Below are positions 1,820 through 53,944 of a DNA stretch of 64,000 bases, in pieces. The DNA lies in the NCBI GenBank assembly GCA_029335875.2, contig JARJMZ020000004.1, forward strand, positions 22,649 to 86,648. Direction: 5' to 3'. Made by a program: the position numbers and the translations under genes. Each line of letters starts with the position of its first letter. Position 1 is the stretch's first letter. The notes below the pieces were generated by a model. It saw only the letters and a program-made list of their open reading frames with translations. It made no database searches and was not told the DNA's origin. This DNA comes from Thermoprotei archaeon (GTDB lineage: Archaea > Thermoproteota > Thermoprotei_A > Sulfolobales > Acidilobaceae).

Positions 1820-2058
1820 GTAGCCGCCGGAACCCAATACCATAGGTTTCCCCCGTGGCTCCGGCTTCCTCCTCAGCCCATTGAGGGCTCCATAGGCTGA
1901 CACCACTGGGGCCGCCTCGTGTTCGCCTCTCACTGTCAATAATTGAGGCAGACATAGCGGGGGGCCTTAAAATAACTCTAAGCTTCCATTTCACATTAAT
2001 GCCTCTAAGTAACCGTGTTAACAGAATACCTTAGAGATTTTACTCTAGAGAACACTCC
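1820..2058 (-). repeat. interspersed element copy A (about 239 bp)
   Basis: In reverse complement it aligns with copies B-G. The shared 5' end is TCTAGAGTAAAATCTCT. It carries the TTAGAGGCAT...TGTGAAATGGAAGCTTAGAGTT module, the GC-rich core GAGGCGGCCCCAG...GGAGCCCTCAATGGGCTG, and the 3' end GGTTCCGGCGGC. The 71-aa track ORF 1779..1994 lies inside it. Confidence 0.85.
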
Positions 2059-4551: not shown

Positions 4552-4585
4552 ACCCCCTGGGAAGCTGGGGTTTGAGGCGGTAGCG

Positions 4586-5308: not shown

Positions 5309-5318
5309 GGGCTACCCC

Positions 5319-5483: not shown

Positions 5484-5642
5484 CCCTCAATCCCTAAATG
5501 GTAAACTGTTCAATCTCAGGCTTAAATACTCTCTAACAATAGGGCTCCCCAGAGGACAGTTTAGGGTTTAAGCGTTTAACGCCCACGCCTCATGGAAAGT
5601 TTAAAGCCCAGGAAAACAGCTAGGTAAAAGGGATAAGAGAGG

Positions 5643-6200: not shown

Positions 6201-6324
6201 AGAAGTAAACGCCGGATAACCGTTAGAAACTCAAGCCCCACTTAAACCTTCCCCATCCACATCTGCATAGGCTATCACGAGGTTAACATTCTAGAAACTT
6301 TAAGATTGCCCTGTGAGAGCATCA

Positions 6325-6930: not shown

Positions 6931-6958
6931 AACTTTAAGCCCCCCGCAGGGGGTCTAT

Positions 6959-8912: not shown

Positions 8913-9142
8913 GGAGAGTAAAATCTCTAGGGTTATCTAGAGGTATTTAAGAGCATAATAATGTGAAATGGAAGCTTAGAGTTGTTTTAAGGCCCCCACG
9001 CCGTGTCTACCTCAATTATTGGCGGTCAGAGGCTGACACGAGGCGGCCCCGCGGCATCCGCCTATGGAGCCCCCAAGGGGCTGATGGGGAAGCCGGGCCT
9101 AATATCATGGGAAAACCTATGGTATTGGGTTCCGGCAACCAC
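8913..9142 (+). repeat. interspersed element copy B (about 230 bp)
   Basis: Contains AGAGTAAAATCTCT...TAGAGGTATTTAAGAGCATAATAATGTGAAATGGAAGCTTAGAGTT...GAGGCGGCCCC...GGAGCCCCCAAGGGGCTG...GGGTTCCGGCAACCAC. It has a deletion of about 17 nt in the 5' module relative to A, D and E. The track ORF 8963..9154 lies inside it. Confidence 0.85.
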
Positions 9143-9192
9143 AGGTTAGAATGAGTATTTAAAGAACTAGGTTAGTATTTAAAAATCTAGGT

Positions 9193-28209: not shown

Positions 28210-28773
28210 TTGGGACTTATAGGCTTAGAGGAGATCCTAAAAGCCATTAAGAGCCTACAGGAGCAGGTTGCCGGTTTGCAGAAGCAGTTTGTCGTAATGC
28301 AAGAGCAGATTGCTGGCTTACAGAAACAGTTTGTCGCCTTACAGGAGCAGGTTGCCGGCCTTCAACAGCAGATGGTTAAGCTGAGTGGGACTATAGCGGC
28401 TCTTGGGATGAGGTATGGTGTTTTGACGGAGGAAGTGTTTAGGGAGGCCGTCAGGTACCTCGTGGAGGATCTGCTTAAGGCTTATAGGGTTGAAAGCTGG
28501 ACATACTACGATAAGGATGGCCGCGTGTTTAACGCACCTTCAATAGTGGATGTTGACGTTCTAGTAAGAGACGAGGAACATGTACTTGTAGAGTATAAGG
28601 CTCACATAGATAGGGGTGATGTAGCTGAACTCTTCAAAATAGGGGAGCTATATGCTGAAGTTAGAAAAGTTAAGCCTAAACTGTTAATAGTAGGCCCCAC
28701 AGCGACTTCGAGGGCCTTAAAACTAGCTGAAGAGCTTAAAGTAGATGTTAGAACTGAACACGTGTTCCAGTAG
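28210..28773 (+). CDS. coiled-coil protein with a C-terminal PD-(D/E)xK-like domain
   Basis: The N-terminus has three 14-aa repeats (QEQVAGLQKQFV-type). The C-terminal half has D...VDVLV...VLVEYK, consistent with a restriction-endonuclease-like fold. A possible 5' extension from ATG 28130 is out of frame at the A5 run 28157-28161. Confidence 0.5.
   Translation: MGLIGLEEILKAIKSLQEQVAGLQKQFVVMQEQIAGLQKQFVALQEQVAGLQQQMVKLSGTIAALGMRYGVLTEEVFREAVRYLVEDLLKAYRVESWTYYDKDGRVFNAPSIVDVDVLVRDEEHVLVEYKAHIDRGDVAELFKIGELYAEVRKVKPKLLIVGPTATSRALKLAEELKVDVRTEHVFQ
28255..28380 (+). repeat. 3 x 42-nt in-frame tandem repeat inside the CDS
   Basis: Units at 28255-28296, 28297-28338 and 28339-28380 are close variants of CTACAGGAGCAGGTTGCCGGTTTGCAGAAGCAGTTTGTCGTA. 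Confidence 0.9.
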
Positions 28774-28944
28774 GCGGGCCTTTGTTTGCTTAGGATCTGC
28801 TTGAAGCCTTAAATCCGGTTCATATCTTCATGTTTAACGTTGACTGTAGCAGTTTTAATGTGTTTTAGGAGATTACTAGGCACGGCTTAAGTTTTGAGTA
28901 TTTCTTATTTTAGCTGTCGAGTTTCAAGTTGTTTCTGGTGTCTA

Positions 28945-29637
28945 GTGTTGGCTGGTGGTAGGGTTATTGTGGCTTTAGATCCCGGGGTTGGGGAGCCTTT
29001 AAGCTATTGGCTTAACATTGTTTCCAGGCTTTGTGGTGGGGTTGCCGGGTTTAAGTTTGGGCTTCCTTTTCTTTTGAGTTATGGTGTTGATGGTGTTAGG
29101 GTTTCTAGGGGTCTTTGTGGTGACATGTTTATAGTTGATTTGAAGCTTGCCGATGTCGGTGATTTCATGGTTTCAACTGTTTCGAGGTTTATTGATTATG
29201 TTGACGGGGTTATAGCTCATGGTTTTATTGGTTTTGAGGGGGCTCTTAGGGAGTTGAAGGATTATCTTGACAGTGTTGGGGTTAAGCTTGCTATTGTAGT
29301 CTCTATGAGCCATGCTGGTAGTCTTGATGTTTTGGATGTGAACATTGATAGGCTGCTTTGGGTTGCTGATAGGGTTAGACCTTGGGGTTTGGTGGCTCCA
29401 GCTACTAGGCCTCACATTATAGGCTATGTTAGGTCTAGGGCTCCTTGGGCTAAGATATTGGCTCCTGGGGTTGGGGTTCAGGGCGTCAGGCCTGGGGATG
29501 CTCTTAGGGCTGGGGCTGACTACGAGATTATAGGTAGGGCTATAACTAGGGCTCCAGACCCCCTGAAAGCTTTACAAACTATAAATCTCGAGCACGAGAA
29601 AATTCTAGGGGGCATGGGGGTTGAACGAGTGCATTGA
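28945..29637 (+). CDS. pyrF: orotidine 5'-phosphate decarboxylase
   Basis: Motifs VIVALD, FKFG, DLKLADVG and IIGRAI. The track ORF begins at 28894, but GTG 28945 gives a canonical N-terminus. Confidence 0.85.
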   Translation: MLAGGRVIVALDPGVGEPLSYWLNIVSRLCGGVAGFKFGLPFLLSYGVDGVRVSRGLCGDMFIVDLKLADVGDFMVSTVSRFIDYVDGVIAHGFIGFEGALRELKDYLDSVGVKLAIVVSMSHAGSLDVLDVNIDRLLWVADRVRPWGLVAPATRPHIIGYVRSRAPWAKILAPGVGVQGVRPGDALRAGADYEIIGRAITRAPDPLKALQTINLEHEKILGGMGVERVH

Positions 29638-30166
29638 GCTAGCCAGGATAGTTGAATCGCGCCAGGCGCTACTCTTCGGAGAGTTCACCCTATCCTCGGG
29701 GCTTAAAAGCAACTACTACCTCGACATGAGGAGGCTCCTCGGAGACTATAAGGCTTATAGGGGGGCTCTCGAGCTCCTAGCCTCAAAGGCTGAGAGCGCC
29801 TTCAAAGATTTCGATACCGTAGTGGGGGTGGCTACAGGAGGCATACCCTGGGCTGCAGGGCTAGCCCTCATTATGGGTAAGAGCCTGGCATATGTAAGGC
29901 TGGAGAGGAAGGGCCATGGAACCCTCGGGGTTGTTGAGGGGGCCCCACCCTACGGCAAGTGCATAGTTGTTGATGACGTGGCCACCACTGGGGCTTCCCT
30001 AGAGTCTGCTGTTGAAGTTTTAAGGAGACACTGTGAAGTGGTGGGGGTTCTAGTGATAGTTGACAGGCTCCAAGGAGCTGAGGAGAGGATGAGGAAGGCT
30101 AACGTTAGGATGGAGAGCGTGGCTACTGTGGAGGAGCTTTTCGAGTGTATAAAGTCTCTAGAATAA
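29621..30166 (+). CDS. pyrE: orotate phosphoribosyltransferase
   Basis: FGEFTLSSGLKSNYYLD and the PRPP loop VVDDVATTGASL. Confidence 0.9.
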   Translation: MNECIELARIVESRQALLFGEFTLSSGLKSNYYLDMRRLLGDYKAYRGALELLASKAESAFKDFDTVVGVATGGIPWAAGLALIMGKSLAYVRLERKGHGTLGVVEGAPPYGKCIVVDDVATTGASLESAVEVLRRHCEVVGVLVIVDRLQGAEERMRKANVRMESVATVEELFECIKSLE

Positions 30167-30192
30167 ATACTGTATTCCCGGGTGTTCCGTGT

Positions 30193-30609
30193 TTAGAAGG
30201 GCTTCACCGACTGCTCTGCTCCGCACGCCTCGCACACGAGGGTCAAAGCTTTACCCCTCTTCTCCAGCCTAGTATCTATGCTGTTACATGTTGGACACCT
30301 TACATAGGACTTTTCAAACCTCTGTAGGAACTCCTCCAGGGTCTTCCTGGATATTTTGGCTGTCAACGTCAAATGGCCTGTACCCTCGTCGTAGGAGCCT
30401 CCAGTGGCCAGCTCCTTCAAGAGGTATCTTGCCACAAGCCCGGGGTCTCTTTTAAGTTTCTCGGCTATGTCCCTGAAATTCCTCACTATAACATGCTCCC
30501 CTATCCTGATCAGCTCAAGCTCCGGGAGCCTGAACTCTCCACTCTCACTCCTCGGAGGTATCTTGGAATAGAGCCTCTCCAGGAGCCTCATATAGTCTGT
30601 TTTGCTCAA
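30193..30609 (-). CDS. eif2b: translation initiation factor aIF2 beta subunit
   Basis: YMRLLERLYSKIP, a central alpha/beta domain and the C-terminal zinc ribbon CPTCNS...CEACG. Confidence 0.9.
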   Translation of the reverse strand: MSKTDYMRLLERLYSKIPPRSESGEFRLPELELIRIGEHVIVRNFRDIAEKLKRDPGLVARYLLKELATGGSYDEGTGHLTLTAKISRKTLEEFLQRFEKSYVRCPTCNSIDTRLEKRGKALTLVCEACGAEQSVKPF

Positions 30610-30697
30610 AGCAGGCCCCCTGAATAATTTAGCGGGGAACCTTTAATATATAATTAAATTTAAGCTCTAACTCCTCGATGTAGGAGGGTGTCTAAGG

Positions 30698-31648
30698 TTG
30701 GAGTACACTAACCTGGGCGGGACTGAAGTCAAGGTATCCAGGGTCGGCTTGGGGGCTTGGCAGTTTAGCGACGTGTGGGGGGTTAAAGACTATGATGTGG
30801 CTAAGTCTATAATAGCTAAAGCTCTAGAGTCAGGGGTCAACTTCATAGACACTGCCGTGGTTTACGGTAGGGGTCTAAGCGAGCAGTTCATAGGCAAAGC
30901 TCTCAGGGAGCTTAATGTTAGGAGGGATGACGTGGTAATAGCTACTAAGATACCTGGAGAATTCCTGAGCCCCCACGATGTGTTTAAGGCTGTGGAGAGG
31001 AGTCTGAGCAGGCTTCAGACGAGCTATATAGACATGCTCCTAGTACACTGGCCCCCATGCTGGCATCATATCCCAACATGTGTTTACATGAGGGCTTTAG
31101 AGAGGCTGGTAAACCTCGGCAAGGTGAATTATCTGGGGCTGAGCGACTACCCTGTGGAGCTTGTGGACGCAGCTAGGATGTGCCTATCTAGAGTGGACAT
31201 TGAAGCCCTCCAAGTCAGATTCAACCTGGCGGAGAGGTGGGCTGAGGAGGAGCACATACCTTATGCTGAGGAGAACGAGATGACCGTAATGGCGTGGAGC
31301 CCCCTAGCTAAAGGAGCTATAACCGGGAAATACAGCCTAGAAGAAGTTCAGAAACTTCAGGACTTAAGGGTTAACGAGCCCCTATTCCAACCAAGCAACT
31401 ACCCTCAAGTACTCGAGCTAGCAAGCATTGTTAAAAGTATAGCCTCGAAATACGGGAAAACCCCAGCCCAAGTAGCTTTAAACTGGCTAATATCATACAG
31501 CGACGTAATAGTCCCCATACCCGGGGCTAGAAACCCCCAACAGGTTGAGGAAAACGCCGGCTCAGTAGGGTGGAGGCTAACATACGAAGATTGGAGGGCG
31601 CTAGACGAGGCTAGCAGAAAACTTAGAATAACATATGCGACATTCTAA
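30698..31648 (+). CDS. aldo/keto reductase
   Basis: GLGAWQF, FIDTAVVYG, LLVHWP and the IPGARNPQQVEEN C-terminal motif. Confidence 0.85.
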   Translation: MEYTNLGGTEVKVSRVGLGAWQFSDVWGVKDYDVAKSIIAKALESGVNFIDTAVVYGRGLSEQFIGKALRELNVRRDDVVIATKIPGEFLSPHDVFKAVERSLSRLQTSYIDMLLVHWPPCWHHIPTCVYMRALERLVNLGKVNYLGLSDYPVELVDAARMCLSRVDIEALQVRFNLAERWAEEEHIPYAEENEMTVMAWSPLAKGAITGKYSLEEVQKLQDLRVNEPLFQPSNYPQVLELASIVKSIASKYGKTPAQVALNWLISYSDVIVPIPGARNPQQVEENAGSVGWRLTYEDWRALDEASRKLRITYATF

Positions 31649-31652
31649 CAGG

Positions 31653-31936
31653 AGAATGTTTTCCCGAGTAGAATTTTTAGGGTTTCCCCCTGGTTAACAT
31701 GGTTACTTAGAGGTATTTAAGAACATCGTGGTGTTTGTGGACTATGAGAGCTTAGAGTTGAGTTTTTAAGACTTCTCCGTTATGTGAGCCCGCTCCTATG
31801 ATTGGCCGTCGGAGGAGAGCGCAGGGAGGCCCCAGTAATGCCCGCCAATGGAGCCCCCAACGGGCCGAGGGGAAGCCGGGCCCAATACCATTAGAAAGAA
31901 CCAAAAACACTCATAACATTGGATTCCGGCGACCAC
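31653..31936 (+). repeat. interspersed element copy C (about 284 bp), left arm of an inverted pair
   Basis: Starts 5 nt after the AKR stop codon. By manual comparison, 31819-31934 is identical to the reverse complement of 34718-34833. Confidence 0.9.
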
Positions 31937-31967
31937 ACAGATAATTACCATGTTAGGCGTGCGGCTG

Positions 31968-33138
31968 TTAAGCTTTATCGGGCTGTGCTCTCATTTTCCT
32001 GTCGTTTGGTAGTAGTAGGGAGAAGAGGAATGCTAAAGCGGTCGCTGCTGCCAGGAAGATGAAGTAGTGTTTCACGCTTCCTATAAACTGGGGGGCCAGG
32101 AATAGGAGGATGACGGAGATTATCCTGCTGATGAAGCCCACGAAGCCGGTAGCGCTTCCCTGGATTTCTTTCCTATGAAATCTACCAATCCAATCCATTA
32201 TCAGCGGGTAACCCGGCATCATTAGAAGTCCTGAAGCCGCTAGGAGAATGTAAAGCGCGTAAACCTCATGGTAGCTGGAGAGGGTTAAGAAGGATATGGT
32301 TATTAGGGGGATCACGGTTCTAAGGTATATAGTCCTGGTTTCTAGCTTTGAGACTATGCTTGGAATAAGAGATATGCCTATTAGCCCGGACGCTATAGTG
32401 AGCGCTACGGCTTGACCGGCGTATCTTCCCAGACCAACTGTTTCAAGTACGGGCTGAAGCCATGTTGCCATGTTATCGAAAACAGCAATTCCAAGGCCTA
32501 GGATGAGCCCGAGCATCCATAAATCTCTTTTCCCAACGACCTCCCTCACTCTGAAACTGTAACTTGACGTGGAATATTCCTGTTTAACGAGGAGGATCCC
32601 CGAGAGGAAGAATGTGATCCCAACGAGAGAGGGCTGCACCGGGGATTATCAGCATTGCCGCCCCCCCGACAGTATATAGATAGTATCCAGCCGCTAGCGC
32701 GGATATTATTCCTAGGTACATTGAAAGGCTCAACACGGAGATCATTAGAGCCCTCCTCTCCTCGTATAATCTTGAGGCGAACGGGACGAAGCCGTTGAGG
32801 AGGAACGGTTGACCTATAGCCGCTAAAAGCTGACAGAGGAAAAGCCATGGATAGGAGTGGGGCATTAAGAGCCTTAATGACCCGCCAAGGAACGTCATGA
32901 AAGCGCCGAAAGTTAGCCAGAAGCGGAAGTTCCTGTCTAAAAGTATTCCTGAGGGAATAGTGAGGATCAAGAAGAAGAGGGGGTAGAGGACTGCCAGGTA
33001 ACCTACTAATACTGGTTGCACGCCCAAGTCTTCAGCTATACTGGTTAAAACAGGAGAGAAGGTGACCCACACATATTGCGATGTGAAGGTTATTATTATG
33101 AACCCTACTGCTAGCAGAATTTTCACTTTAATCACCAT
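31968..33138 (-). pseudogene. MFS transporter split by a frameshift
   Basis: ORF 32584..33138 encodes the N-terminal six-helix half. ORF 31968..32639 encodes the C-terminal half in another frame. They overlap around 32584-32639. Confidence 0.7.
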
Positions 33139-34506
33139 ACAGCTTTATCACAATATCCTTTACAAACTCCTCAACTGTTTTCGGGTCGAACATGTCGACA
33201 AGCAGGGGTGCGATGCTCGAATCTATCCTTCCACTCGTTAAATCTTCCAGGATACTCTCAACCGGTAGTATTTCAGCTAAGCTTCTCTTAACCCTGCTCT
33301 TCTCCGCAACCTTCCCCGCGTCTGCAACGAACTCCCCGGCCGTTTCCCTGTGGATGGGTGAGAGAGTTAAATGTATGTTCATAGGTATTGAATACTTTTC
33401 CACCTCCCTCTGGAGGTGAAAGTGCCACCCCATCCCCCTCATAGCCAGCGTGAAAGACAATAGGTCAACATCGGAGTTGAAAAGACTTAAAATAGGTGAT
33501 TCAACTGGGGCTACACTCTTAAAACCCAGAGGCTTCAAACCCTTAAGTATAGCCTCCCTCGCCTCTAGCACGCTCTTAGATAACCTCAGGTAGCCTTCTT
33601 CGCCTAAAAACTTTACTACGGCGAACGCGGAAGCCAAAGGACCTACGGAACGTGAAGAGAGGACGGCAGGGTTGACGAAGACGTACCCGGGGTTTTGGAC
33701 GTCAACAAACATTGATTCCTTCTTCAACTCCGCCGACCGGAATAAAACTGTGGAGGCACCTTTTGGAGTATAACCGTATTTATGGAGGTCCGCGGAGATA
33801 GATGTAACCCCATCTACTCGGAAATCGAAAAGCTCCACCCTTTCGCCTAGCTTCTCGAAAAACGGTAGGATGAAGCCTCCGAGGCAGGCGTCAACGTGAA
33901 GGGGTGTCCCCTCATCTACTGCTACATCAGCGATCTCCCTAACCGGGTCTATAGTGCCAAAAGGCCAGTTAGGGGCTGAGACCGCTATTAACGCTGTTTT
34001 ATCGCTTACCGACTCTTTAAGGCTCTCAACGTCGGCTTTTAGTTTCTCGTCTATATCGAAGTGTCTGATTTTCATTCCAAGGTAATGAGCTGCTTTCGCG
34101 AAGGAAGGGTGAATGGTGAAAGGCGCTAGAACCTCGGGAACCACATTCTTGCCCCTCTGCTTCCAGAAATAGTTCCTGGCAGATAGAACTGCAAGCATTA
34201 TGCTTTCAGTCCCTCCATAAGTGAAGGTCCCGTAGGTGTTCTCCCCATGGAGCAGCTTCTTCGTGAAATTTAAAACCTCTTTTTCGAAGAAGATAGCACT
34301 CCTATAAACAGTAAAGTCAAGCATGTTTTTATTGTAAAATTTCAGCAAAGCTTTCATCGCGACGTTTTTTAACTTTCTCATCCCCCGTTTCATAAATATA
34401 CGCGAAAAACTTCCCGGAAACGAGCACGTCCAGTTTTTCAGCCTCACTTAAAAGCTTGTCGATTTCAAGCTCTTTGTTTTTCAGATTCGCCTGATAAGGA
34501 GGTCAA
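33128..34506 (-). pseudogene. PLP-dependent group II decarboxylase with a frameshifted N-terminus
   Basis: The body has the PLP lysine motif SISADLHKYGY. The conserved N-terminal segment (NLKNKELEIDKLLSEAEKLDVLVSGKFFAYIYETGDEKVKK) lies in a different frame from the 33128..34447 ORF. A TTG at 34506 preceded by GGGAGGT lies in a third frame. Both apparent shifts are at A-runs. Confidence 0.6.
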
Positions 34507-34715
34507 CTTTTTCTTTTACCTCCCAAATTTCAAGATCCTAAAACTTATATAATTGTAGCCTTGAGAAGCGTTCTAACAGTTTCAATAGCATACTAGAGCG
34601 TGATAAGAGAGAGGAAAGCAGGCTAAAATGAGCACTTCACATGTGGATTAAACTGCAAGCCTCCTATTAGCTATCAGAATGTCACATACGTTATTTTAAG
34701 CCTCCTACTAGCCTC

Positions 34716-34989
34716 GCGGTCGCCGGAATCCAATGTTATGAGTGTTTTTGGTTCTTTCTAATGGTATTGGGCCCGGCTTCCCCTCGGCCCGTTGGGGGCT
34801 CCATTGGCGGGCATTACTGGGGCCTCCCTGCGCCCGCCTCCGATGGCCAATCATGGGGGTGGGCTCGTATAGCGGGGGAGCCTTAAAATATCTCTAAGTC
34901 TTCATAGTTCACATTATTATGTCTTTAAATGCCTCTAAGTAGCCATGTTAGCAGGGAAACACCAGAGATTTTACTCTAGAAAACATTCT
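34716..34989 (-). repeat. interspersed element copy D (about 274 bp), right arm of the inverted pair
   Basis: The reverse complement aligns end to end with C. The 3' 116 nt are identical to C. Confidence 0.9.
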
Positions 34990-35243
34990 AACGCGGTAAG
35001 GTGTGTTTCCACGTTTCTCCATGAATAGCGGGAAATCGCCTGTAGCGTGTTTTTAAGCTCTCTGCTTGCCAGTAATCTGGGTTGAAGTTAGAAATGTGCT
35101 ATTATGGTTTTTAAAGATGAAGAGTTAAATTAAATGTGTAACATTATTTTAAATATTTAGGTATCGTTTATATTTAAATGGCGCTTTATAATAAAAATAT
35201 TACCCTAGCCTGAAATTCATTATATTGAAGGAGGTGCTCGGGC

Positions 35244-36173
35244 TTGATATCTATAATTGGAGTTGGGAGGGTTGGGACTGCCACCGCTCTTATAGCTCTT
35301 CTTAGGGGCTTGGATAATAAGATAGTTCTCGTTGATATTGTGCCGGGGCTTGCTCAAGGGGAGGCTCTAGACCTCGGTCATGCAGCTTCAATCCTCGGCA
35401 TTGATGTTGATATTGTTGGTACTGAGGATTTCAGCGCCATAAAGGGGAGTGACATAGTTCTAGTTACCGCCGGTAAGCCTAGGAAGCCTGGGATGACTAG
35501 GGAGCAGCTTCTAGCAGATAATGCTGCTATAACCGCTGACATAGCTTCTAAGATTAAACAGTACGCCCCAGACTCCACGGTTATAATGACGACTAACCCT
35601 CTAGACGCCATGGTCTACGTCATGTATAAGAAGCTCGGGTTCCCGAGGGAGAGGGTTATAGGGTTTAGCGGTGTCCTAGATTCCGCCAGGCTCGCATACT
35701 ACGCTTCTAAGAAGCTTAAAGTGAGCCCCTCCTCGATAAACCCGGTAGTCATAGGTATGCATGGGGAGGCCATGTTCCCCGTGCCTAGGCTATCAACAGT
35801 AGCCGGGGTCCCGCTAACACAGCTAATGTCCAAGAGCAGTGTAGAGGAAGTGGTTAAAGAAACAGTACAAGCTGGAGCCGTAATAACAAAACTCAGGGGC
35901 TACAGCAGCAACTACGCCCCAGGGGCAGGCATGGTCCTCATGGCTGAGGCTGTCAAGAGAGACTCTAAGAAAACTTTCATAGCAAGCATATACCTAGACG
36001 GGGAATACGGGCTCAGAGACGTCGTAGCAGAGATCCCCGTAGTCATCGGAAGAGGGGGCGTAGAGAAAGTAATAGAACTCCCGCTAGACGAGGAGGAGAG
36101 ACTGGGATTCCTAAAGAGCGTTGAAGCCGTAAAAGCCCTCATAGACGCGCTGCCAGAAGAATATAAGAAGTAA
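35244..36173 (+). CDS. mdh: malate dehydrogenase (LDH-like family)
   Basis: Rossmann motif ISIIGVGRVGTA, GKPRKPGMTREQL (substrate Arg), TNPLD and IGMHGE. Confidence 0.88.
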   Translation: MISIIGVGRVGTATALIALLRGLDNKIVLVDIVPGLAQGEALDLGHAASILGIDVDIVGTEDFSAIKGSDIVLVTAGKPRKPGMTREQLLADNAAITADIASKIKQYAPDSTVIMTTNPLDAMVYVMYKKLGFPRERVIGFSGVLDSARLAYYASKKLKVSPSSINPVVIGMHGEAMFPVPRLSTVAGVPLTQLMSKSSVEEVVKETVQAGAVITKLRGYSSNYAPGAGMVLMAEAVKRDSKKTFIASIYLDGEYGLRDVVAEIPVVIGRGGVEKVIELPLDEEERLGFLKSVEAVKALIDALPEEYKK

Positions 36174-36368
36174 CAAGCACACGCTCGGAGACCCTCCATA
36201 AACCCAAGTTTCTCCTTTTTAACACAACTTTTTAACTCAAACTCTCCTTTGGCTGAGAGATTTCTCTCGATGTTACTTTACTTCTCTTGGAGAGCTCGGC
36301 CCCTCTAATACTACGGGTTATAGTGTGGTTCTTTCCCGTTTCCCGAGTAGTATGTTGGTATGTTTTGT

Positions 36369-39908: not shown

Positions 39909-40157
39909 ATTGTTGCCGAAACCCAATTCCATGATTTTAGGCCCGGCTCCCCCTCAGCCCCTTGGGGGCTACATTGGCTGGCATTACTGGGGCCTCCCTG
40001 CGCTCTCCTCCAACTACCAATCATAGGAGCGGGCTCACATAGCGTGGAAGCCTTAAAATAACTTTAAGCTTCCATTTCACATTATTATGTCCTTAAATGC
40101 CTCTAAGCAGCCATGTTAGCAGGGAAACACCAGAGATTTTACTCTAGAAGACAGTCT
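39909..40157 (-). repeat. interspersed element copy E (about 249 bp)
   Basis: The reverse complement aligns with C, D and G (CTTCTAGAGTAAAATCTCTGGTGTTTCCCTGCTAACATGGCTGCTTAGAGGCATTTAAGG...GGGAGGCCCCAGTAATGCC...). Its 5' end lies 17 nt from the pus10 start codon. Confidence 0.88.
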
Positions 40158-40174
40158 TTTAATGGGGGGTTTGT

Positions 40175-41458
40175 GTGGATTTCGTGTTTAAGGCTTTGGG
40201 GGTTTTGAGGGAGAGGCCTTTATGTGATAGGTGTCTTGGCAGGTTTTTTGCTAGGCTTGGTTATGGGTGGTCTAATCTTGATAGGGGTTCTGCTATTAAG
40301 AGGGTTATAGTTATGTATTATCATTGGAGGGTTAAGTCTGGCGATAGGGGTGCTTTGGAGGAGTTCCTCTCTGTAGCCCCTAATATTGGGGTTGAGGCCT
40401 CAGGGCTTTATAGGCTCCTTACGGGGGGAGATCTCGGGGCTAGACCTTGCTCTATTTGTGGTGGTGTCCTTGAGAGTTTCCTCGACAAGGTTGCCGGCGA
40501 TGTTGCGGGGCTTTTGAGGGTTTATGGTGTTAGGAGGTTTATCATAGGGGTTAAGCCTAGCGGCGATATCCTGGGTGTTGAGGAGGAGATAGCTTCTAAA
40601 CATTCCCTAGACGGGTGGGAGTCTATTAAGAACGAGATTAAGAGGGAGGTTGGTAAGAGGGTTGAATCTCTGGGGTTCACAGCGGACTTCACGAGCCCCG
40701 AGGCTATGGTTATTATAGGGTTCCCCGGCGGCGGGCTCGAAATTATAGTTAATAGCCTAATCCTGGCGGGCAGGTATTGGAAGAGGGGGAGGCTCGTAAG
40801 CCAAGCATACTGGCCTAGTTTCGAGGGTGCAAAGTACTACTCTATAGAAGAGGCCCTCACACCCCTCCTAAGGATCGCTGAAGGCGAGAGCATAGTCTTC
40901 CACGCTGCGGGGAGGGAGGATGTGGATGCTAGGATGCTCGGCACCGGGAGGCCTGTCCTGGTTGAAGTTAAAGCTCCGAGGGTTAGGGAGCTGGAATTCT
41001 CCGAGGTCGAGAGGGCTGTCCAGGAGGCTTCCAAAGGCCTCGTTGCCTTCAAGTTTGAAGGCTACGCTAACAGGAGCATGGTTAAGGTTTACAAGGAGGA
41101 AGCCACTGTTAAGAGTAAAGTCTATAAAGCTCTCATAGCTGTAAGGGGTGGCATAGAAGAGGGGGAGCTGGCAAGGCTTGAAGAAGCTCTAAGAGGGGCG
41201 GCAATAACTCAGAGGACCCCCCTGAGAATACTGCGTAGGAAGAAGGACATTACAAGGGCTAAGAAAGTCTACGAGGTTAAATGTAGAATCCTAGGCGGAC
41301 CCCTCATAGAATGCCTAATAAAAGCCTCTGGAGGACTCTACGTTAAAGAACTTATAAGCGGGGATAACGGGAGAACAAGGCCCAGCTTCACAGAAATACT
41401 AGGCAGGGAAGCCTCATGCCTCGAACTCGACGTGCTACTAGTCACCCCTATAAGCTAA
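40175..41458 (+). CDS. pus10: tRNA pseudouridine synthase Pus10
   Basis: N-terminal Zn module LCDRCLGRFFARLG...CSICGG, a THUMP-like middle and a C-terminal catalytic domain with a GREDVDARMLGTGRP-type motif. Confidence 0.85.
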   Translation: MDFVFKALGVLRERPLCDRCLGRFFARLGYGWSNLDRGSAIKRVIVMYYHWRVKSGDRGALEEFLSVAPNIGVEASGLYRLLTGGDLGARPCSICGGVLESFLDKVAGDVAGLLRVYGVRRFIIGVKPSGDILGVEEEIASKHSLDGWESIKNEIKREVGKRVESLGFTADFTSPEAMVIIGFPGGGLEIIVNSLILAGRYWKRGRLVSQAYWPSFEGAKYYSIEEALTPLLRIAEGESIVFHAAGREDVDARMLGTGRPVLVEVKAPRVRELEFSEVERAVQEASKGLVAFKFEGYANRSMVKVYKEEATVKSKVYKALIAVRGGIEEGELARLEEALRGAAITQRTPLRILRRKKDITRAKKVYEVKCRILGGPLIECLIKASGGLYVKELISGDNGRTRPSFTEILGREASCLELDVLLVTPIS

Positions 41459-42100: not shown

Positions 42101-42849
42101 TCTAGGCCCCCTTCAACTCCCAGGCATTTAGAGGCCATTTTAGAGGCTTTCTTATTCCTCCCAGAGAAGAGGCATCTTGAGAGTTCCTCGAAAGCATCAT
42201 CCCCCTCTCTCCACTCTCTGATCCTTGAGAGTTCCACGACAGCACCGTGAACTTCAGGCTGGGGGTAATAGTAGCTTCTAGGTATAACCCCCACTATTCT
42301 AGCTTTGAAGTACCTCTCCACTAGTAGTGTGAGCCTCCCGTAATCGGGGCTTCCAGGCTCCGCTATCATCCTGGAGGCCAGCTCCCTCTGAACTCCCAGA
42401 ACCGCATAGGCTATGTTATTGTTCTCCGCCACAGCCCTCAAAATAACGCTTGAAAGGCTGTAGGGGGTATTAGAATACAAAACTTTAAGGCTCGTAGACC
42501 TAGAATGGTCGACCCCATCGCCCACAACAACAGCAACATTCTCCGGAGCTACCCCCGACAAGTGCTCTGCTAGACTCCTATCAACCTCCACGGCAACTAT
42601 CCTAGAAGCCAAGCCTGCAGCGTGGAGAGTGAGGGCTCCAAGACCCGGGCCTACCTCCATCATATCACTGTAGGGAGCCCTGGAGAGAGGCTCTAGGAAG
42701 AACTCAAGCCCCCTAGGGTCTACTAGAAAATGCTGCCCCAAGGATTCCCTAGGCTTTACCCCCAGCCTCTCAAGATTCTCTAAAGTCCACTCTAAAAGAC
42801 TCCTCCGCGTGAACGTCAAGCTGATAGCGAAGCACCCGCCCCACGCCAT
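42028..42849 (-). CDS. ksgA: 16S rRNA dimethyladenosine transferase (KsgA/Dim1)
   Basis: LGQHFLVD, EVGPGLGALT and SNTPYSLSS motifs. Confidence 0.9.
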   Translation of the reverse strand: MAWGGCFAISLTFTRRSLLEWTLENLERLGVKPRESLGQHFLVDPRGLEFFLEPLSRAPYSDMMEVGPGLGALTLHAAGLASRIVAVEVDRSLAEHLSGVAPENVAVVVGDGVDHSRSTSLKVLYSNTPYSLSSVILRAVAENNNIAYAVLGVQRELASRMIAEPGSPDYGRLTLLVERYFKARIVGVIPRSYYYPQPEVHGAVVELSRIREWREGDDAFEELSRCLFSGRNKKASKMASKCLGVEGGLEWLKEKRVKELTVEDLERLLEFYK

Positions 42850-42922
42850 ATTTCAGGGTTTAAGAGTTTAAATAAATATTCGACCACACTATGAAACCAT
42901 CCAAAAGGACTTGAACTTTTAG

Positions 42923-42958
42923 ATTAAGGGGATTCAATAAATTAAGGGGATTCAATAA
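42923..42958. repeat. perfect 2 x 18-nt tandem duplication in the ksgA upstream intergenic region
   Basis: ATTAAGGGGATTCAATAA occurs at 42923-42940 and again at 42941-42958. Confidence 0.9.
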
Positions 42959-42995
42959 ACCCAAAGCCCTTAACGGGGAAGGCTGCACGCCCCCA

Positions 42996-43916
42996 CTAGG
43001 AGCTGCGCAGCTCAGAACTTTTCCTGAAGTATGCTCTCTTGACTTTGCTGAGATAGTCTAAGTATGGAGAGTCGGGGCTCGAAGGCTCTATGAAGAGGTA
43101 GTATCTAGCCTCCCCCCTTATCTCCTCAGATATCTTCTCAGCTAGGGCTGTTAGGGGGTCTATTTTGAGGACCTTCTTGACCTCCTCGAAGCTCTCGAAA
43201 GGCTTCTGCCTCCTCCTCTCGAGGAATGCTGAGAGTACTTTTTTGCCTACTCCTTTGAAGAGTTCGAGGGTGTGGAGTCTCACGTTTATAGCGTCGGCTA
43301 TGTTGAAGAACTCGACGTATATGCGTTCATCTGTTTTTATAATGGCTTTCACCGCTTCCGTAAGATTGCTCTTAGCTATGTCTGTTAGCTCCCCATATTT
43401 GAGGGGGCTCGGGGGGACCACTAGTATTGATGGTGGGAGGCCTTTATCCTCAGCTATCCTGGAGAGCTCGAGGGGGGAGTCTACGAGTAGGGCCCAGCCC
43501 CCCTCCTCCTGTATTGCGGTCTTCAGGGATTCAAGGCCCCACTTATCTAGGGGTGTGAGGGGGTAGCAGTACACGATTTTCTCAGGGCCTGGGAGGCACG
43601 CTAGGACCACCACACTCTTCTTAACCTTCTGGCCCTTCCAGTCAATAGGCTGTATTATTGTTCTCAGGACGCTCCTAGCGAGGGTGACCCTCTGGAGAAC
43701 CTCTACATCACCAAGGGGTATGCCATCTATTAGAGTGAACCTCCTGACCCCTATAGCTTGAGCTATAGGCCTATCCTTATGCTCTTTATGGGGGTCGTTG
43801 TAAAGACCCTGGGGGATATAATCTATGATAATCCCCTCAACCTCAACAGCCGCCGGGTGCTGGGACCTTAACCCCTGCGGCCTCCCAGGCCCCCTCTCAA
43901 AGCCCTCTGACTCCAA
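42996..43916 (-). CDS. DUF655/COG1491-type predicted nucleic-acid-binding protein
   Basis: It sits in the conserved archaeal neighbourhood rpoF-rpl21e-COG1491-ksgA. The N-terminal OB-like region and C-terminal HhH-like region (LHTLELFKGVGKK) fit this family. Confidence 0.65.
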   Translation of the reverse strand: MESEGFERGPGRPQGLRSQHPAAVEVEGIIIDYIPQGLYNDPHKEHKDRPIAQAIGVRRFTLIDGIPLGDVEVLQRVTLARSVLRTIIQPIDWKGQKVKKSVVVLACLPGPEKIVYCYPLTPLDKWGLESLKTAIQEEGGWALLVDSPLELSRIAEDKGLPPSILVVPPSPLKYGELTDIAKSNLTEAVKAIIKTDERIYVEFFNIADAINVRLHTLELFKGVGKKVLSAFLERRRQKPFESFEEVKKVLKIDPLTALAEKISEEIRGEARYYLFIEPSSPDSPYLDYLSKVKRAYFRKSSELRSS

Positions 43917-45503: not shown

Positions 45504-45860
45504 AGAGCGTTCCACCATTTCTTCACTAGCGGAGTTAACCCTACTCCCCCCCATTTCGAGGAACGTGGGGCTTTATAGGGGCTAACGCTACGGGCCAACG
45601 GTCTCCACTATTAATATCTATCATCCTCTGCATAGCGGGCTGCTGGGGTTCGAGTTCCCCTTATTGTTTAAACATTTATACAGCTCGGTTTACAGGGAGG
45701 CTTTAAAGTTGTATTATGGTGTTACAGGTTGCAGGCGGCGACTCTGGGTGTGGGGGGTTATGGGTATTAATGCGGCTTCCACTCGGTCCACGGTGTTTAA
45801 AGGCTGGCGCATATGTAGAGTATATAAGACCTAGTATTTTACTGTTTCCTGGGGGTTCGC

Positions 45861-51531: not shown

Positions 51532-51652
51532 AGACTATTTTCTAGAGTATAATCTCTGGAGTTTCTTGGTTAACATGGTTGCTTGGAGACATTGAGGCTA
51601 GGGGAAGCCGGGCCCAATACCATGGTGTTGGGTTCTGGCGCCGTTTCTCAGC
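51532..51652 (+). repeat. interspersed element copy F: 121-bp internal-deletion derivative
   Basis: The 5' module (AGACTATTTTCTAGAGTATAATCTCTGGAGTTTCTTGGTTAACATGGTTGCTTGGAGACATTGAGG) joins directly to the 3' part (CTAGGGGAAGCCGGGCCCAATACCATGGTGTTGGGTTCTGGCGCC). Confidence 0.8.
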
Positions 51653-51659
51653 CTCCTTT

Positions 51660-52973
51660 TTACCACATTGTTAGGAATATTATTAGGCTTATAACATAGT
51701 GGATTATTAGGCTTACTATGGTGAATGGTATCGTGATTTTCATCCACTCGTGCCACACTACTTTTCTTCCTAGGGCTTTCTCAGCTAGTACTAGTGATAG
51801 GTATAGTGCTGGGGCTCCAGCTATTGTCGCGTTGCTCCCTAGGGTTCCAGACCATACTGTGGCCCAGAGGTGTGGCCATGGGTCTATGCCGTGCTCTGTT
51901 GCCGCTTGTTTTAGTGTTACGAGTGTTGTGAGTATTATGGCGTCGTGCTCTATTACAGTTGATAGGGATGCTACGATCCAGTATGTCATTGTGTAGGATG
52001 TTGCTAGCGGCCCCGCTAAATACCCTGATAGGGTTGCTGCGACACTACCTATCCAGCCTCCTATTTCGAGCCCTTTAACTAGGCTGAATAGTGAAGCGTA
52101 GAATATGACGACTTTCCACTCCATGTCTCTAAGCACTTCCTCGAAGCTTGGTATCCTGTTGAGCCTTATTCTTAGGATTTCGAGGGTTAAAGCTGTAGCT
52201 ATAGCCGTGGACATAGATATGGCTCCTAGGGGGACGTTGCCGAGCATTGGCCTTATAGACGCTAAGGCTATGAACACTAGGAACCCGGCTATCGAGCACG
52301 CCGCCGTCACCCTATCCACTTCAGGCTTCTCCAGGTTTAAACCGGATAGAGGCACGTTGCGCAGCCCCCCAAACCATATGCGGTAGAATATGGCTAACGT
52401 CAGGATATACGATAGTGTTAAGAGGAGGAAACTGCCCGGGACCCCCCTAAACCATATGAAATCCAGGAACTCAGCCCCCGCAACACTATGGAGCATCTGA
52501 GGCGGCAAGTCCCCTAGAAGGAGGGCTGTACCCATGTAGTTAGCCGCTAAACCCACAATCATGGCTGCGATTAGGGGGTTTTGCCTAAGTTTTCTAGCAG
52601 TTTCAACAGCTAGACCTCCGAAGAGTAGTATTACGAGGACATTATCCACAAACATCGTTACGAAAGCGGCCATTAAAGTTATTGTTAGAAGGAGCTGGCC
52701 GTAGCTCGCAGACCTCTCGACAGCCAGGTACACGAGATACTCCGGGACCCTCGACTTTGAAAGGTAGCCGGAGAGAGTCCACATACCTATGAGTATCATT
52801 ATAACATTCCAGTCTACAGCCTTAAACGCGTCAACAAAAGTATAGTTTTCCGAGAGAACAGCTAAAACTACGACCCCCGCTAAAGCTATAAGACCCCTCT
52901 CCAAAGGGGCAAATATTATAGCTAATATTGTCATCAAAACTATTGCTAACGAAACATAATCCACCACTGACAC
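51660..52973 (-). CDS. ArsB/NhaD-superfamily (SLC13/CitMHS-like) ion transporter
   Basis: 437-aa polytopic protein with two homologous halves and family-like segments. Substrate unknown. Confidence 0.65.
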   Translation of the reverse strand: MSVVDYVSLAIVLMTILAIIFAPLERGLIALAGVVVLAVLSENYTFVDAFKAVDWNVIMILIGMWTLSGYLSKSRVPEYLVYLAVERSASYGQLLLTITLMAAFVTMFVDNVLVILLFGGLAVETARKLRQNPLIAAMIVGLAANYMGTALLLGDLPPQMLHSVAGAEFLDFIWFRGVPGSFLLLTLSYILTLAIFYRIWFGGLRNVPLSGLNLEKPEVDRVTAACSIAGFLVFIALASIRPMLGNVPLGAISMSTAIATALTLEILRIRLNRIPSFEEVLRDMEWKVVIFYASLFSLVKGLEIGGWIGSVAATLSGYLAGPLATSYTMTYWIVASLSTVIEHDAIILTTLVTLKQAATEHGIDPWPHLWATVWSGTLGSNATIAGAPALYLSLVLAEKALGRKVVWHEWMKITIPFTIVSLIIHYVISLIIFLTMW

Positions 52974-53398: not shown

Positions 53399-53667
53399 AG
53401 ACTGTTTTCTAGAGTGAAATCTTTGGGGTCTTTTGGTTAACATGCCGGTATAATGCGGTGCCCGAGGGCTATGAGAATTTAGGGTTTAATTTTCAGTGTC
53501 CCCTAATTTTACTAGCGGCGAGCCCGCCCCTATGATTGGCAGTTGGAGGCGGGGGCAGGGCGGCCCCAGTAATGCCCGCCTATGGAGCCTCCAATGGGCT
53601 GGGGGCCGGAGCCTAAAACCATAGGAAAGAAACAAAAACACCCACGGCATTAGGTTCCGGCGTCCAC
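53399..53667 (+). repeat. interspersed element copy G (about 269 bp)
   Basis: AGACTGTTTTCTAGAGTGAAATCTTTGG...GGGCGGCCCCAGTAATGCCCGCCTATGGAGCCTCCAATGGGCTGGGGGCCGGAGCC...GGTTCCGGCGTCCAC. This is the most diverged full-length copy. Confidence 0.85.
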
Positions 53668-53944
53668 AACCTGGAATTTCTCAAGGAGGCCTAGAGATGG
53701 CCTAGAACGCCGGCAAGCGGGGGGCTCTGGAAGATCTGAAACCCTAACATTAAGAGGGGTCTCAACGCGGCAGGACTCTATCCCAGTCTCTAGGGACTTT
53801 AATAGTGAGTATTGTGCCCGCCACCCTCATAAAACCTCTAAAATCCCTAATCCCGCTATTCTTATCTTCCGGGAACGGCGGGCGGTTCTTCGGGTGTTGC
53901 GTGCGGTCGTGTTATTGATTTAATAGGTGTGGTTAAGGATTTTT

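What the first reader, a model, noticed from the sequence alone, without database searches (positions are those of the whole stretch)
31653..34989. Two inverted element copies with a perfect 116-bp repeat bracket a lower-GC, decaying two-gene cassette
Copies C (+) and D (-) face each other with their 3' ends inward. Positions 31819-31934 and 34718-34833 are exact reverse complements by my comparison. That makes C and D much more similar to each other than to any other pair of copies.

The 2.8 kb between them holds an MFS transporter split by a frameshift. It also holds a PLP-dependent group II decarboxylase whose N-terminus is spread over three frames, with both apparent shifts at A-runs.

By eye this interval is more AT-rich than its surroundings. 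Sampled 60-nt lines run from about 32% to 52% GC. It also favours AAA, GAA and TTT codons, unlike neighbouring genes. The structure looks like a composite-transposon-like or recombination-delimited insertion of foreign DNA that is now decaying.
Basis: partly seen in the sequence, partly recalled or inferred. Interest (0 to 1): 0.75.

Follow-up and report, generated by a model that had tools for sequence, protein, structure and literature searches.

The report
Repeat-bracketed inversion of acquired operon
Two copies of a small, undescribed non-coding repeat sit at the breakpoints of an inversion of an older, horizontally acquired decarboxylase-transporter gene pair; they did not bring those genes in. 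This is an ordinary kind of genome rearrangement, unusual only in how clearly its history can be read.

Summary
C (31653-~31948, +) and D (34989-34718, -) are inverted copies of a ~280-300-nt non-coding repeat with 7 copies in the window. Positions 31819-31934 and 34718-34833 are exact reverse complements. The MFS gene carries one frameshift and the decarboxylase two, both at A-runs. The composition claim is weak: GC is 0.471 against 0.498, and GC3 and codon choice match the neighbours.

A relative (L001, ~85% DNA identity) has AKR -> intact decarboxylase -> intact MFS -> mdh at the same site, collinear, with no element copies. Two more distant relatives have AKR next to mdh. The cassette's closest homologues (79% and 74% aa, same gene pair) are in Archaeoglobaceae. 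So the cassette is foreign but was there before the elements.

In the window, the segment from the last 46 bp of AKR to the MFS end is inverted. C and D lie exactly at the two breakpoints, and the AKR tail is duplicated in inverted orientation. That is the footprint of transposition-coupled inversion, or of two insertions followed by recombination.

A 99.4%-identical strain (L008) has the same junctions with both genes intact, so the decay is recent and strain-specific. Both arms share a substitution that differs between strains, so the arms are kept alike by gene conversion. The element family matches nothing known.

The parts
30698..31648 (+). Aldo/keto reductase gene (AKR), intact. Its last 46 nt are the duplicated target.
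   Evidence: Pfam PF00248, E 3e-73. 90.8% aa identity to the L001 orthologue over the full length.
31606..31651 (+). t: the 46-nt AKR tail (..DEASRKLRITYATF*), abutting the 5' end of element C.
   Evidence: (I2).
31653..31948 (+). Element copy C. The 5' terminus is the canonical AGAATG. The 3' end includes the ACCACA..(T)AAT tail shared with B, F and G.
   Evidence: Homology to L001 resumes at 31953.
31819..31934 (.). Left arm of the perfect 116-nt inverted repeat (gene-conversion tract).
   Evidence: Both arms changed together between this strain and L008.
31968..33138 (-). MFS transporter pseudogene. A 2-nt deletion in a (CT)n tract at 32632 splits it into ORFs of 184 and 223 aa.
   Evidence: Intact at 389-390 aa in L001 and L008. 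TIGR00903 at 448 bits, above its cutoff.
33128..34506 (-). Group II PLP-dependent decarboxylase pseudogene, with +A at 34481 (A4->A5) and +A at 34370 (A5->A6).
   Evidence: Intact at 458 aa in L001 and L008.
34507..34670 (-). Native AKR-decarboxylase spacer with the presumed operon promoter, carried along by the inversion.
   Evidence: Collinear with L001 7008-7163.
34671..34716 (-). t': an inverted duplicate of the AKR tail (encodes REASRRLKITYVTF**), abutting the 3' end of element D and continuous with the native downstream spacer.
   Evidence: (I2). Local alignment score 23.5 against 5-8.5 for all other flank pairs, and 0 of 1000 shuffles reach it.
34718..34989 (-). Element copy D. The 5' terminus is canonical. 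The 3' end stops at GGCGACC and lacks the ACA.. tail.
   Evidence: Homology to L001 resumes at 35003.
34718..34833 (.). Right arm of the perfect 116-nt inverted repeat.
35244..36173 (+). Malate dehydrogenase gene, the right-hand anchor for synteny.
1822..2058 (-). Element copy A (A/B subfamily).
8916..9157 (+). Element copy B, 5'-truncated, with a long 3' hairpin.
   Evidence: Fold z-score -3.83.
39912..40157 (-). Element copy E, absent from L001. Its 5' end lies ~15 nt upstream of the Pus10 start codon.
51532..51676 (+). Element copy G, internally deleted.
53399..53682 (+). Element copy F.

Best explanation
The locus records four successive events.

1. An ancestor of this lineage and of L001 acquired a decarboxylase-MFS operon between AKR and mdh. 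It is a probable amino-acid decarboxylation/antiport pair, most likely from Archaeoglobaceae.

2. After the split from L001, a ~290-nt non-coding, multi-copy repeat became involved in inverting the segment from the last 46 bp of AKR to the MFS-mdh spacer. The repeat is MITE-like but has no terminal inverted repeats and no regular target duplication. The result is AKR-t-C(+)-[MFS<-decarboxylase<-spacer]-t'(inverted)-D(-)-mdh.

The single most likely mechanism is an intramolecular, replicative 'in trans' transposition of D from the MFS-mdh spacer into the AKR tail. One step of that kind creates the inverted copy C, the inversion and the inverted 46-bp target duplication. This step is inferred.

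3. The 3' 116 nt of C and D are kept identical by ongoing gene conversion. Recombination between the arms may also flip the segment.

4. In this strain only, three slippage mutations recently inactivated both genes.

Shown: the order of events, the breakpoints, the duplication, the concerted change in the arms, and the strain-specificity of the frameshifts. Inferred: the enzyme and mechanism that move the element, and one step versus several.
For: Synteny:
- L001 has AKR -> decarboxylase (458 aa) -> MFS (389 aa) -> mdh, all on one strand, with no element.
- L002 and L003 have AKR directly followed by mdh.

Breakpoints:
- window 28900-31651 = L001 4262-7007
- window 31953-34562 = L001 9717-7107, inverted
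- window 34663-34716 = L001 7015-6962, inverted
- window 35003-36296 = L001 9762-11055

Duplication:
- t and t' match at 37 of 46 positions.
- t lies at the outer 5' end of C and t' at the inner 3' end of D.
- t/t' divergence (80% identity) equals C/D 5'-part divergence (78%), as expected if both arose together.

Independent assemblies:
- L008 reproduces both inner junctions at 99.4% identity, with intact genes.
- L012 reproduces the D-5'/mdh junction.

Gene conversion:
- Both arms read CACTCAT in the window and CACCCAT in L008.

Decay is real and local:
- There are 3 frame-breaking indels in the cassette and none in 19 other genes shared with L001.
- There are no coding indels in ~6.4 kb compared with other near-identical unitigs.

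Horizontal transfer:
-.
Against: - A 46-bp target duplication is far longer than usual for transposases, and no other copy shows any duplication.
- D's 3' junction is truncated, lacking the ACA.. tail present in B, C, F and G. A precise transposase joint should not be truncated.
- In the 5' part D is closer to E (88%; 82 nt at 95%) than to C (78%). That fits C and D as independent insertions, or needs later conversion or copying between D and E.
- The orientation of the interior rests on assembly across a perfect 116-nt inverted repeat. No independent contig spans an arm, because the k=31 unitigs break 37 nt inside it.
- No autonomous partner or transposase was found in the window.
Confidence: 0.7

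Rival explanations
1. Stepwise origin. C inserted just after the AKR stop codon with a 46-bp staggered-cut duplication, giving AKR-t-C-t'-decarboxylase. D inserted independently and in inverse orientation in the MFS-mdh spacer. Homologous recombination between C and D then inverted the interior and left the 116-nt conversion tract.
For: - It gives the same final topology as the one-step model.
- In the 5' part C is no closer to D than to E (78% against 80%), and D-E is 88%.
- The copies are mosaics, and conversion between arms is demonstrably active.
- A possible short duplication, TTACCGCGTT / TTACCATGTT, lies at the D-5' and C-3' flanks.
Against: - It needs three events instead of one.
- It still needs the unexplained 46-bp duplication and the truncated 3' end.
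- The candidate short duplication is not significant on its own (p~0.27).
- The equal divergence of t/t' and of the C/D 5' parts would be a coincidence.
Confidence: 0.35
2. One reading: C and D form a composite-transposon-like unit that carried the foreign decarboxylase-MFS DNA into the AKR-mdh spacer.
For: - Inverted copies bracket a cassette that is absent from L002 and L003.
- The cassette's nearest homologues are in another phylum.
Against: - L001 has the cassette at the same site, intact, without elements and in the opposite orientation.
- The bracketed segment includes 46 bp of the resident AKR gene and the native spacer.
- The elements are non-coding and ~290 nt long. Indels among copies are not multiples of three.
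- There is no direct repeat around the whole unit.
Confidence: 0.03
3. Assembly or population artefact. The true or predominant arrangement is collinear (AKR-t-C-t'-decarboxylase-MFS-D(-)-mdh), or both isomers coexist and the assembler chose one. The frameshifts are consensus errors.
For: - The inner junctions are separated from the unique outer parts by a perfect 116-nt inverted repeat.
- Short-read unitigs break there.
- All three frameshifts lie in simple-sequence tracts.
Against: - The contig runs through seven repeat copies, so the assembler had linking information.
- No coding indels occur elsewhere, in 19 genes against L001 or in 6.4 kb against near-identical unitigs.
- A 2-nt deletion is not a typical homopolymer error.
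- The window holds another pseudogene made by substitutions: COX1 with three in-frame stops.
- Even if the orientation were collinear, the 46-bp duplication, the two post-cassette element insertions and the refutation of the composite-transposon idea would all stand.
Confidence: 0.15
4. The repeats are not mobile DNA but a multi-copy structured small-RNA gene family with its own TATA-like box. The inversion is then simply ectopic recombination between two gene copies.
For: - The sequence GGCATTTAAAGAC lies ~25 nt upstream of the conserved GC-rich core in B, C, D and E.
- Predicted helices show some G-C to A-U and G-U changes: 6 of 48 pairs have double changes.
- Copy B folds much better than shuffled sequence (z -3.83).
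- All copies are intergenic.
Against: - No Rfam family matches.
- D folds no better than shuffled sequence (z -0.23).
- The TATA-like box is deleted in A, F and G.
- Copies are truncated or internally deleted (B, G).
- C, D and E are absent from the corresponding sites of L001 at ~85% identity, which indicates recent spread.
- Recombination alone cannot create the 46-bp duplication.
Confidence: 0.15

Closest known systems
Intramolecular replicative transposition 'in trans' (IS26, Tn3-family Tn4401; He et al. 2015, PMC4471558)
   Same: - Two copies in inverted orientation bracket an inverted resident segment.
- The target sequence is duplicated in inverted orientation, with one copy at one end of one element and the other at the opposite end of the second element.
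- Neither copy has its own flanking direct repeat.
   Different: - The duplication is 46 bp, not 5-8 bp.
- The element is ~290 nt and non-coding, with no terminal inverted repeats.
- One new junction is truncated.
- The copies are now only 78% identical in their 5' part.
- No transposase is known for it.
Archaeal MITEs, e.g. the ~260-nt MITEs of Staphylothermus marinus related to the upstream region of IS607-family one-ORF elements (PMC2678158)
   Same: - Similar size, non-coding and multi-copy, in a Desulfurococcales-type crenarchaeon.
[quoted passage not shown]
- Copies lie in intergenic DNA.
   Different: - The S. marinus repeats have inverted repeats and a recognisable parent element.
- Here there are no terminal inverted repeats, no conserved flank and no regular target duplication.
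- No parent element was found.
IS200/IS605-type ends and their non-autonomous derivatives (from my own knowledge of the family)
   Same: - No terminal inverted repeats and no target duplication.
- There is a subterminal hairpin ~10 nt from the 5' end (CTAGAG-TAAAAT-CTCTGG).
- A long hairpin closes ~7-20 nt before the 3' end.
   Different: - There is no conserved 4-5-nt target at the left flank. The flanks read TTTA, CAGG, CGTT, TAAA, ATAT and ATTT.
- The two hairpins are unrelated to each other.
- No tnpA or tnpB was found nearby, and there is no Rfam hit.
IS1634/IS1549-type elements that make long, variable direct repeats (from memory, not checked here)
   Same: A precedent for target duplications of tens to hundreds of base pairs.
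   Different: Those are autonomous DDE elements with terminal inverted repeats in bacteria. Nothing links them to this element.
Amino-acid decarboxylase plus antiporter pairs (GadB/GadC-type logic)
   Same: - A group II PLP decarboxylase (PF00282) is immediately followed by a transporter gene.
- The pair is conserved as a unit in Archaeoglobaceae.
   Different: - The substrate is unknown. The best NCBIfam hit is MfnA at 208 bits, below its cutoff of 299.
- The transporter is an MFS (TIGR00903), not an APC-family antiporter.

Membership tests
Composite transposon | Flanking units are autonomous insertion sequences that encode a transposase. | tested here: not met
   The elements are 230-300 nt. 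Indels among copies are not multiples of three. The only ORFs are ~51-aa antisense ORFs with no homologue.
Composite transposon | Cargo and flanking copies arrive together: relatives have either an empty site or the whole unit. | tested here: not met
   L001 has the cargo at the same site without elements.
Composite transposon | A direct target duplication surrounds the whole unit. | tested here: not met
   The outer flanks are unrelated. The only duplication is inverted, with one copy outside C and one inside D.
MITE | Short, non-coding, multi-copy and dispersed. | tested here: met
   There are 7 copies in 64 kb, all intergenic. Unitigs of sister strains break inside copies.
MITE | Terminal inverted repeats. 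| tested here: not met
   The 5' end is AGA(A/C)TGTTTTCTAGAG and the 3' end is ..GGTTCCGGCGACCACA... They are not complementary.
MITE | A target-site duplication of fixed length. | tested here: not met
   No significant flanking direct repeat at any copy in situ.
MITE | An autonomous element with the same ends. | not testable with these tools
   No transposase among the window ORFs scanned. The rest of the genome could not be searched by DNA.
Intramolecular replicative transposition in trans | The segment between two inverted copies is inverted relative to the ancestral order. | tested here: met
   Window 31953-34716 is the reverse of L001 6962-9717. Caveat: the orientation rests on assembly across 116-nt arms.
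Intramolecular replicative transposition in trans | [quoted passage not shown] | tested here: met
   t lies at the outer 5' end of C and t' at the inner 3' end of D.
Intramolecular replicative transposition in trans | The duplication length is the one characteristic of the element, and the joints are at the exact termini. | tested here: not met
   The duplication is 46 bp here and none is seen elsewhere. D's 3' joint lacks the ACA.. tail.
IS200/IS605-derived element | A conserved short target sequence immediately 5' of the left end. | tested here: not met
   The flanks differ among copies.
Any Rfam RNA family | A covariance-model match at the gathering score. | tested here: not met
   The whole window gives only two tRNAs. 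Permissive scans of D, B and F give only E>1 noise.
Invertase-driven switch (site-specific invertible segment) | An adjacent recombinase gene and short specific inverted repeats. | tested here: not met
   No recombinase among the neighbouring genes. The arms are 270-300-nt copies of a dispersed repeat.
Group II PLP-dependent decarboxylase | A Pyridoxal_deC domain. | tested here: met
   PF00282, E 7e-21 on the window ORF. The MfnA model hits below its cutoff.

The most novel reading that the evidence does not exclude
The ~290-nt element may be a new kind of archaeal non-autonomous mobile element. The one datable insertion has three unusual features:
- one junction at the exact terminus;
- the other junction truncated;
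- a 46-bp target duplication.

The element also has a structured GC-rich core and possibly its own TATA-like box. That combination is what an RNA-mediated, target-primed (SINE-like) insertion would leave if the RNA is antisense to the orientation used here. It is not what a classical cut-or-copy transposase would leave. No such retroelement is known in Archaea.
Probability: 0.06. Interest if true: 0.8.

Novelty: new member of a known kind. Interest (0 to 1): 0.3.

Why it matters
The locus gives a dated, step-by-step natural history of one site in an uncultured hyperthermophilic crenarchaeon:
- cross-phylum acquisition of a decarboxylase/transporter operon;
- a later inversion tied to a repeat;
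- concerted evolution of the inverted arms;
- very recent gene loss in one strain.

It also corrects a tempting misreading, since inverted repeats around foreign genes do not make a composite transposon. The repeat family itself is undescribed. Its one informative junction pair (precise end, truncated end, 46-bp duplication) is the best available clue to how it moves. None of this changes general understanding, because repeat-bracketed inversions and gene conversion between inverted repeats are well known.

Tried and rejected
Searches for the element elsewhere found nothing useful.
- Two degenerate core patterns each match all 6 full copies in the window. They gave 0 hits in the GTDB species representatives and 0 in JGI metagenome contigs.
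- A looser pattern gave 2 viral-contig hits. Neither shows any BLAST similarity to the element, so they are chance matches.
- blastn against phage and plasmid collections gave no match.
- The antisense 51-aa ORF was used as bait in the protein database and found no candidate.
- Rfam gave nothing at gathering or permissive thresholds.

Ideas about the element that were rejected:
- tRNA-like origin: ARAGORN finds only tRNA-His and tRNA-Asp, both elsewhere.
- Protein-coding element: indels among copies break the frame.
- Target-site duplications at individual copies: none is significant.
- Template-switch inversion driven by microhomology: the t|C junction has no complementary microhomology. The 7-10-nt ACATTCT(AAC) coincidences were noted but not interpretable.

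Other dead ends:
- The bacterial promoter/terminator scan does not apply to an archaeon.
- Exact-product look-ups of the AKR gene and of the last gene in the window found nothing.
- A literature search for Acidilobus repeats or MITEs found nothing relevant.
Full report
**What is at the coordinates**

The window comes from an uncultured Acidilobaceae-type Thermoprotei MAG. Its mdh is 100% identical to a protein that a source names 'MAG: malate dehydrogenase [Thermoprotei archaeon]'.

A BLAST of 31600-31960 against the window finds seven copies of one repeat:

| Copy | Coordinates | Strand | Note |
|---|---|---|---|
| A | 2058-1822 | - | |
| B | 8916-9157 | + | 5'-truncated |
| C | 31653-~31948 | + | |
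| D | 34989-34718 | - | |
| E | 40157-39912 | - | |
| F | 53399-53682 | + | |
| G | 51532-51676 | + | internally deleted |

C and D face each other with their 3' ends inward. Positions 31819-31934 and 34718-34833 are exact reverse complements over 116 nt, and identity stops abruptly on both sides. The wider arm is 171 nt at 93%.

Between C and D, on the minus strand, lie a group II PLP decarboxylase (PF00282) and an MFS transporter split into two ORFs.

**The element**

- It is 230-300 nt long and non-coding. Indels among copies are not multiples of three, and the ~51-aa antisense ORF has no homologue.
- It has no terminal inverted repeats, no conserved flank, and no significant flanking direct repeat at any copy in situ.
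- Its 5' end is AGA(A/C)TGTTTTCTAGAGTAAAATCTCTGG, with a 6-bp hairpin about 10 nt from the end.
- Most copies carry a TTTAA(A/G) box.
- A GC-rich core follows. RNAalifold predicts several helices there, and 6 of 48 pairs show double changes.
- The 3' domain is a hairpin, GCCGGGCC.AAT...ATTGG.TTCCGGC, followed by ACCACA and about 10 more nt.
- Copy B folds far better than shuffled sequence (z -3.83). D does not (z -0.23).
- No Rfam family matches at any threshold.
- Degenerate core patterns that hit all six full copies in the window found nothing in the GTDB species representatives or in JGI metagenome contigs. There was also no match in phage or plasmid records.
- All copies are intergenic. 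No transposase was found among the window ORFs scanned.
- The copies are mosaics:

| Part | C-D | C-E | D-E |
|---|---|---|---|
| 5' part | 78% | 80% | 88% (82 nt at 95%) |
| 3' part | 98% | | |
| Overall | 87% | | 85% |

  A-B overall is also 85%.

**Relatives settle the history**

L001 is an ENA contig with mdh at 93% aa and DNA at about 85% identity. It has AKR -> decarboxylase (458 aa, intact) -> MFS (389 aa, intact) -> mdh, all on one strand, and no copy of the element in 21 kb.

L002 (mdh 88%) and L003 (mdh 80%) have AKR followed directly by mdh. The cassette was therefore inserted before the window lineage and L001 split, and before any element was there.

The decarboxylase's nearest homologues outside the lineage are Archaeoglobaceae proteins at 79% and 77% aa. 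After them come more Archaeoglobaceae/Geoglobus proteins and one Pyrobaculum protein at 55-70%. In Archaeoglobaceae locus L009 the decarboxylase is followed by an MFS that is 74% identical to the L001 one. DNA identity to the cassette is 73% over 2.5 kb. A second Archaeoglobaceae-type locus, L013, agrees.

Foreign origin is thus supported by distribution and phylogenetic affinity, not by composition:
- The interior GC is 0.471 against 0.498 for the window. Equal-sized windows have sd 0.018, and the interior falls at the 8.5th percentile.
- GC3 is 0.53-0.56, inside the neighbours' range.
- AAA, GAA and TTT usage is not distinctive.
- Only 34000-35243, which is largely intergenic, is clearly AT-rich.

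**The elements bracket an inversion, not the insertion**

blastn against L001 gives these blocks:

| Window | L001 | Orientation |
|---|---|---|
| 28900-31651 | 4262-7007 | same |
| 31953-34562 | 9717-7107 | inverted |
| 34663-34716 | 7015-6962 | inverted |
| 35003-36296 | 9762-11055 | same |

The inverted segment starts 46 bp inside AKR. It carries the native AKR-decarboxylase spacer and ends in the MFS-mdh spacer.

The AKR gene keeps its own last 46 nt (t, 31606-31651..DEASRKLRITYATF*). Those abut the canonical 5' terminus of C. A second, inverted copy (t', 34716-34671, encoding REASRRLKITYVTF**) abuts the 3' end of D and runs on into the native spacer. t and t' match at 37 of 46 positions. 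No shuffle and no other pair of flanks comes near that score.

The structure is AKR-t-C(+)-[inverted interior]-t'(inverted)-D(-)-mdh. [quoted passage not shown] In that pathway the segment between the element and its target is inverted and bracketed by the original and an inverted new copy. [quoted passage not shown] By that template D is the original, sitting in the MFS-mdh spacer, and C is the new copy.

Two independent insertions, C with a 46-bp staggered-cut duplication and D elsewhere, followed by homologous recombination would give the same topology.

*For the one-step model:*
- It is more economical.
- t/t' (80% identity) and the C/D 5' parts (78%) have diverged equally.
- C's left flank (CAGG) is the only one that is not A/T-rich.

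*Against the one-step model:*
- 46 bp is far longer than usual, and no other copy has a duplication.
- D's 3' joint stops at GGCGACC, lacking the ACA..TTAGRAAT tail shared by B, C, F and G.
- D's 5' part is closer to E than to C.

I cannot decide between the two models. I give the one-step version a modest edge.

**The arms are homogenised, and the decay is recent**

L008 is a Logan unitig from SRR24762752. It is 99.4% identical to window 34754-31898. It contains D's last 37 nt, t', the spacer, both genes and C's last 37 nt, so both inner junctions are reproduced in an independent assembly. Its decarboxylase (458 aa) and MFS (390 aa) are intact.

The window differs from L008 by 13 substitutions and three indels:
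- +A at 34481 (A4->A5)
- +A at 34370 (A5->A6)
- -CT at 32632 ((CT)4->(CT)3)

These three indels are exactly the three frameshifts.

In the arms, both copies read CACTCAT in the window and CACCCAT in L008. A substitution that arose after the strains diverged is therefore present in both arms of the same genome. That is direct evidence of gene conversion, and it explains the perfect 116-nt tract running to the end of homology.

L012, from the same run, reproduces the D-5'/mdh junction at 99.65% identity.

The frameshifts are unlikely to be general assembly noise:
- None of the 19 other genes shared with L001 is frameshifted.
- The only indels in ~6.4 kb compared with near-identical unitigs are non-coding.
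- Another gene in the window, COX1, is a pseudogene with three in-frame stops, one of which stands where a conserved glycine is expected.

Read-level confirmation is still needed.

**Caveat on orientation**

The perfect 116-nt tract reaches the inner end of both arms, so the orientation of the interior depends on assembly across it. No independent contig spans an arm, because the k=31 unitigs stop 37 nt inside.

If the true state were collinear, or if both isomers coexist through recombination between the arms, the remaining conclusions would still hold:
- The cassette predates the elements.
- There is a 46-bp duplication at C.
- The arms undergo gene conversion.
- The decay is recent.

**Comparison with known systems**

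This is not a composite transposon, because three defining features were tested and failed. The element works like a MITE in being short, non-coding, multi-copy and recently expanded. C, D and E are all absent from L001. It fails the MITE criteria of terminal inverted repeats and a fixed target duplication.

The nearest published analogue in related archaea is the ~260-nt repeat of Staphylothermus marinus, which is linked to IS607-family one-ORF elements (PMC2678158). That repeat has inverted repeats and a known parent.

The end architecture is subterminal hairpins with no inverted repeats and no duplication. That recalls IS200/IS605 derivatives, but the expected conserved left-flank target is absent.

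**Verdict**

The foreign-origin and decay parts are upheld, with the qualification that the decay is specific to this strain. The rearrangement is of a known kind. The repeat family is new but only thinly characterised, with seven copies and no relatives retrievable.

Noticed in passing
window 9193-10896 (-): A cytochrome oxidase subunit I (COX1)-like gene has three in-frame stop codons (..LTAH*VLL.., ..YLE*K.., ..PQG*P..). The longest ORF covers only Pfam COX1 positions 168-436. This is a second pseudogene, made by substitutions, 33 nt from element B.
   Followed up: partly
window 40100-40180; L001 14480-14565: The 5' end of element E lies ~15 nt upstream of the Pus10 start codon. In L001 a TTATTAAAT box sits about 30 nt upstream of the ATG. 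In the window that position is taken by the element's terminal hairpin loop (reverse complement GATTTTAC). The element may therefore supply an outward TATA-like promoter.
   Followed up: partly
L004 1-200 (Logan SRR23854657, mdh 95% aa): In this closer relative the DNA upstream of the mdh promoter is not element D. It carries 25-nt repeats, ATCTCCCATAAGGGAATAGAAAGTT, spaced 58 nt apart, which looks CRISPR-like. The mdh upstream region seems to be a rearrangement hot spot.
   Followed up: partly
window 42840-43019: About 180 nt are absent from L001, where the two flanking genes abut. The stretch contains a tandem duplication, TTAAGGGGATTCAATAAA x2, and the 9-mer CGACCACAC shared with the element's 3' end, which is probably chance.
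   Followed up: no
window 45459-45818: The spacer between a SpoU-type methylase gene and rpS19 is 360 nt here and 90 nt in L001. It has no Rfam hit at gathering score, and its content is unexplained.
   Followed up: no
L006 6633-6817, L007 1667-1851, L008 ends, L012 1-27: Short-read unitigs from strains 99.4-99.8% identical to the window all end 25-190 nt inside element copies. That fits a repeat present many times in the genome.
   Followed up: partly
window 31640-31649 and 34983-34992: The 10-mer ACATTCTAAC occurs at the end of the AKR tail and again across the D-5'/flank junction on the + strand. ACATTCT is also the reverse complement of the element's first 7 nt. This could be chance or a clue to target choice.
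   Followed up: partly
window 28256-28376: Five 21-nt periodic repeats (heptad-like, ..CAGGAGCAGGTTGCCGG..) lie inside a coiled-coil protein gene and are also present in L001. This is ordinary.
   Followed up: no
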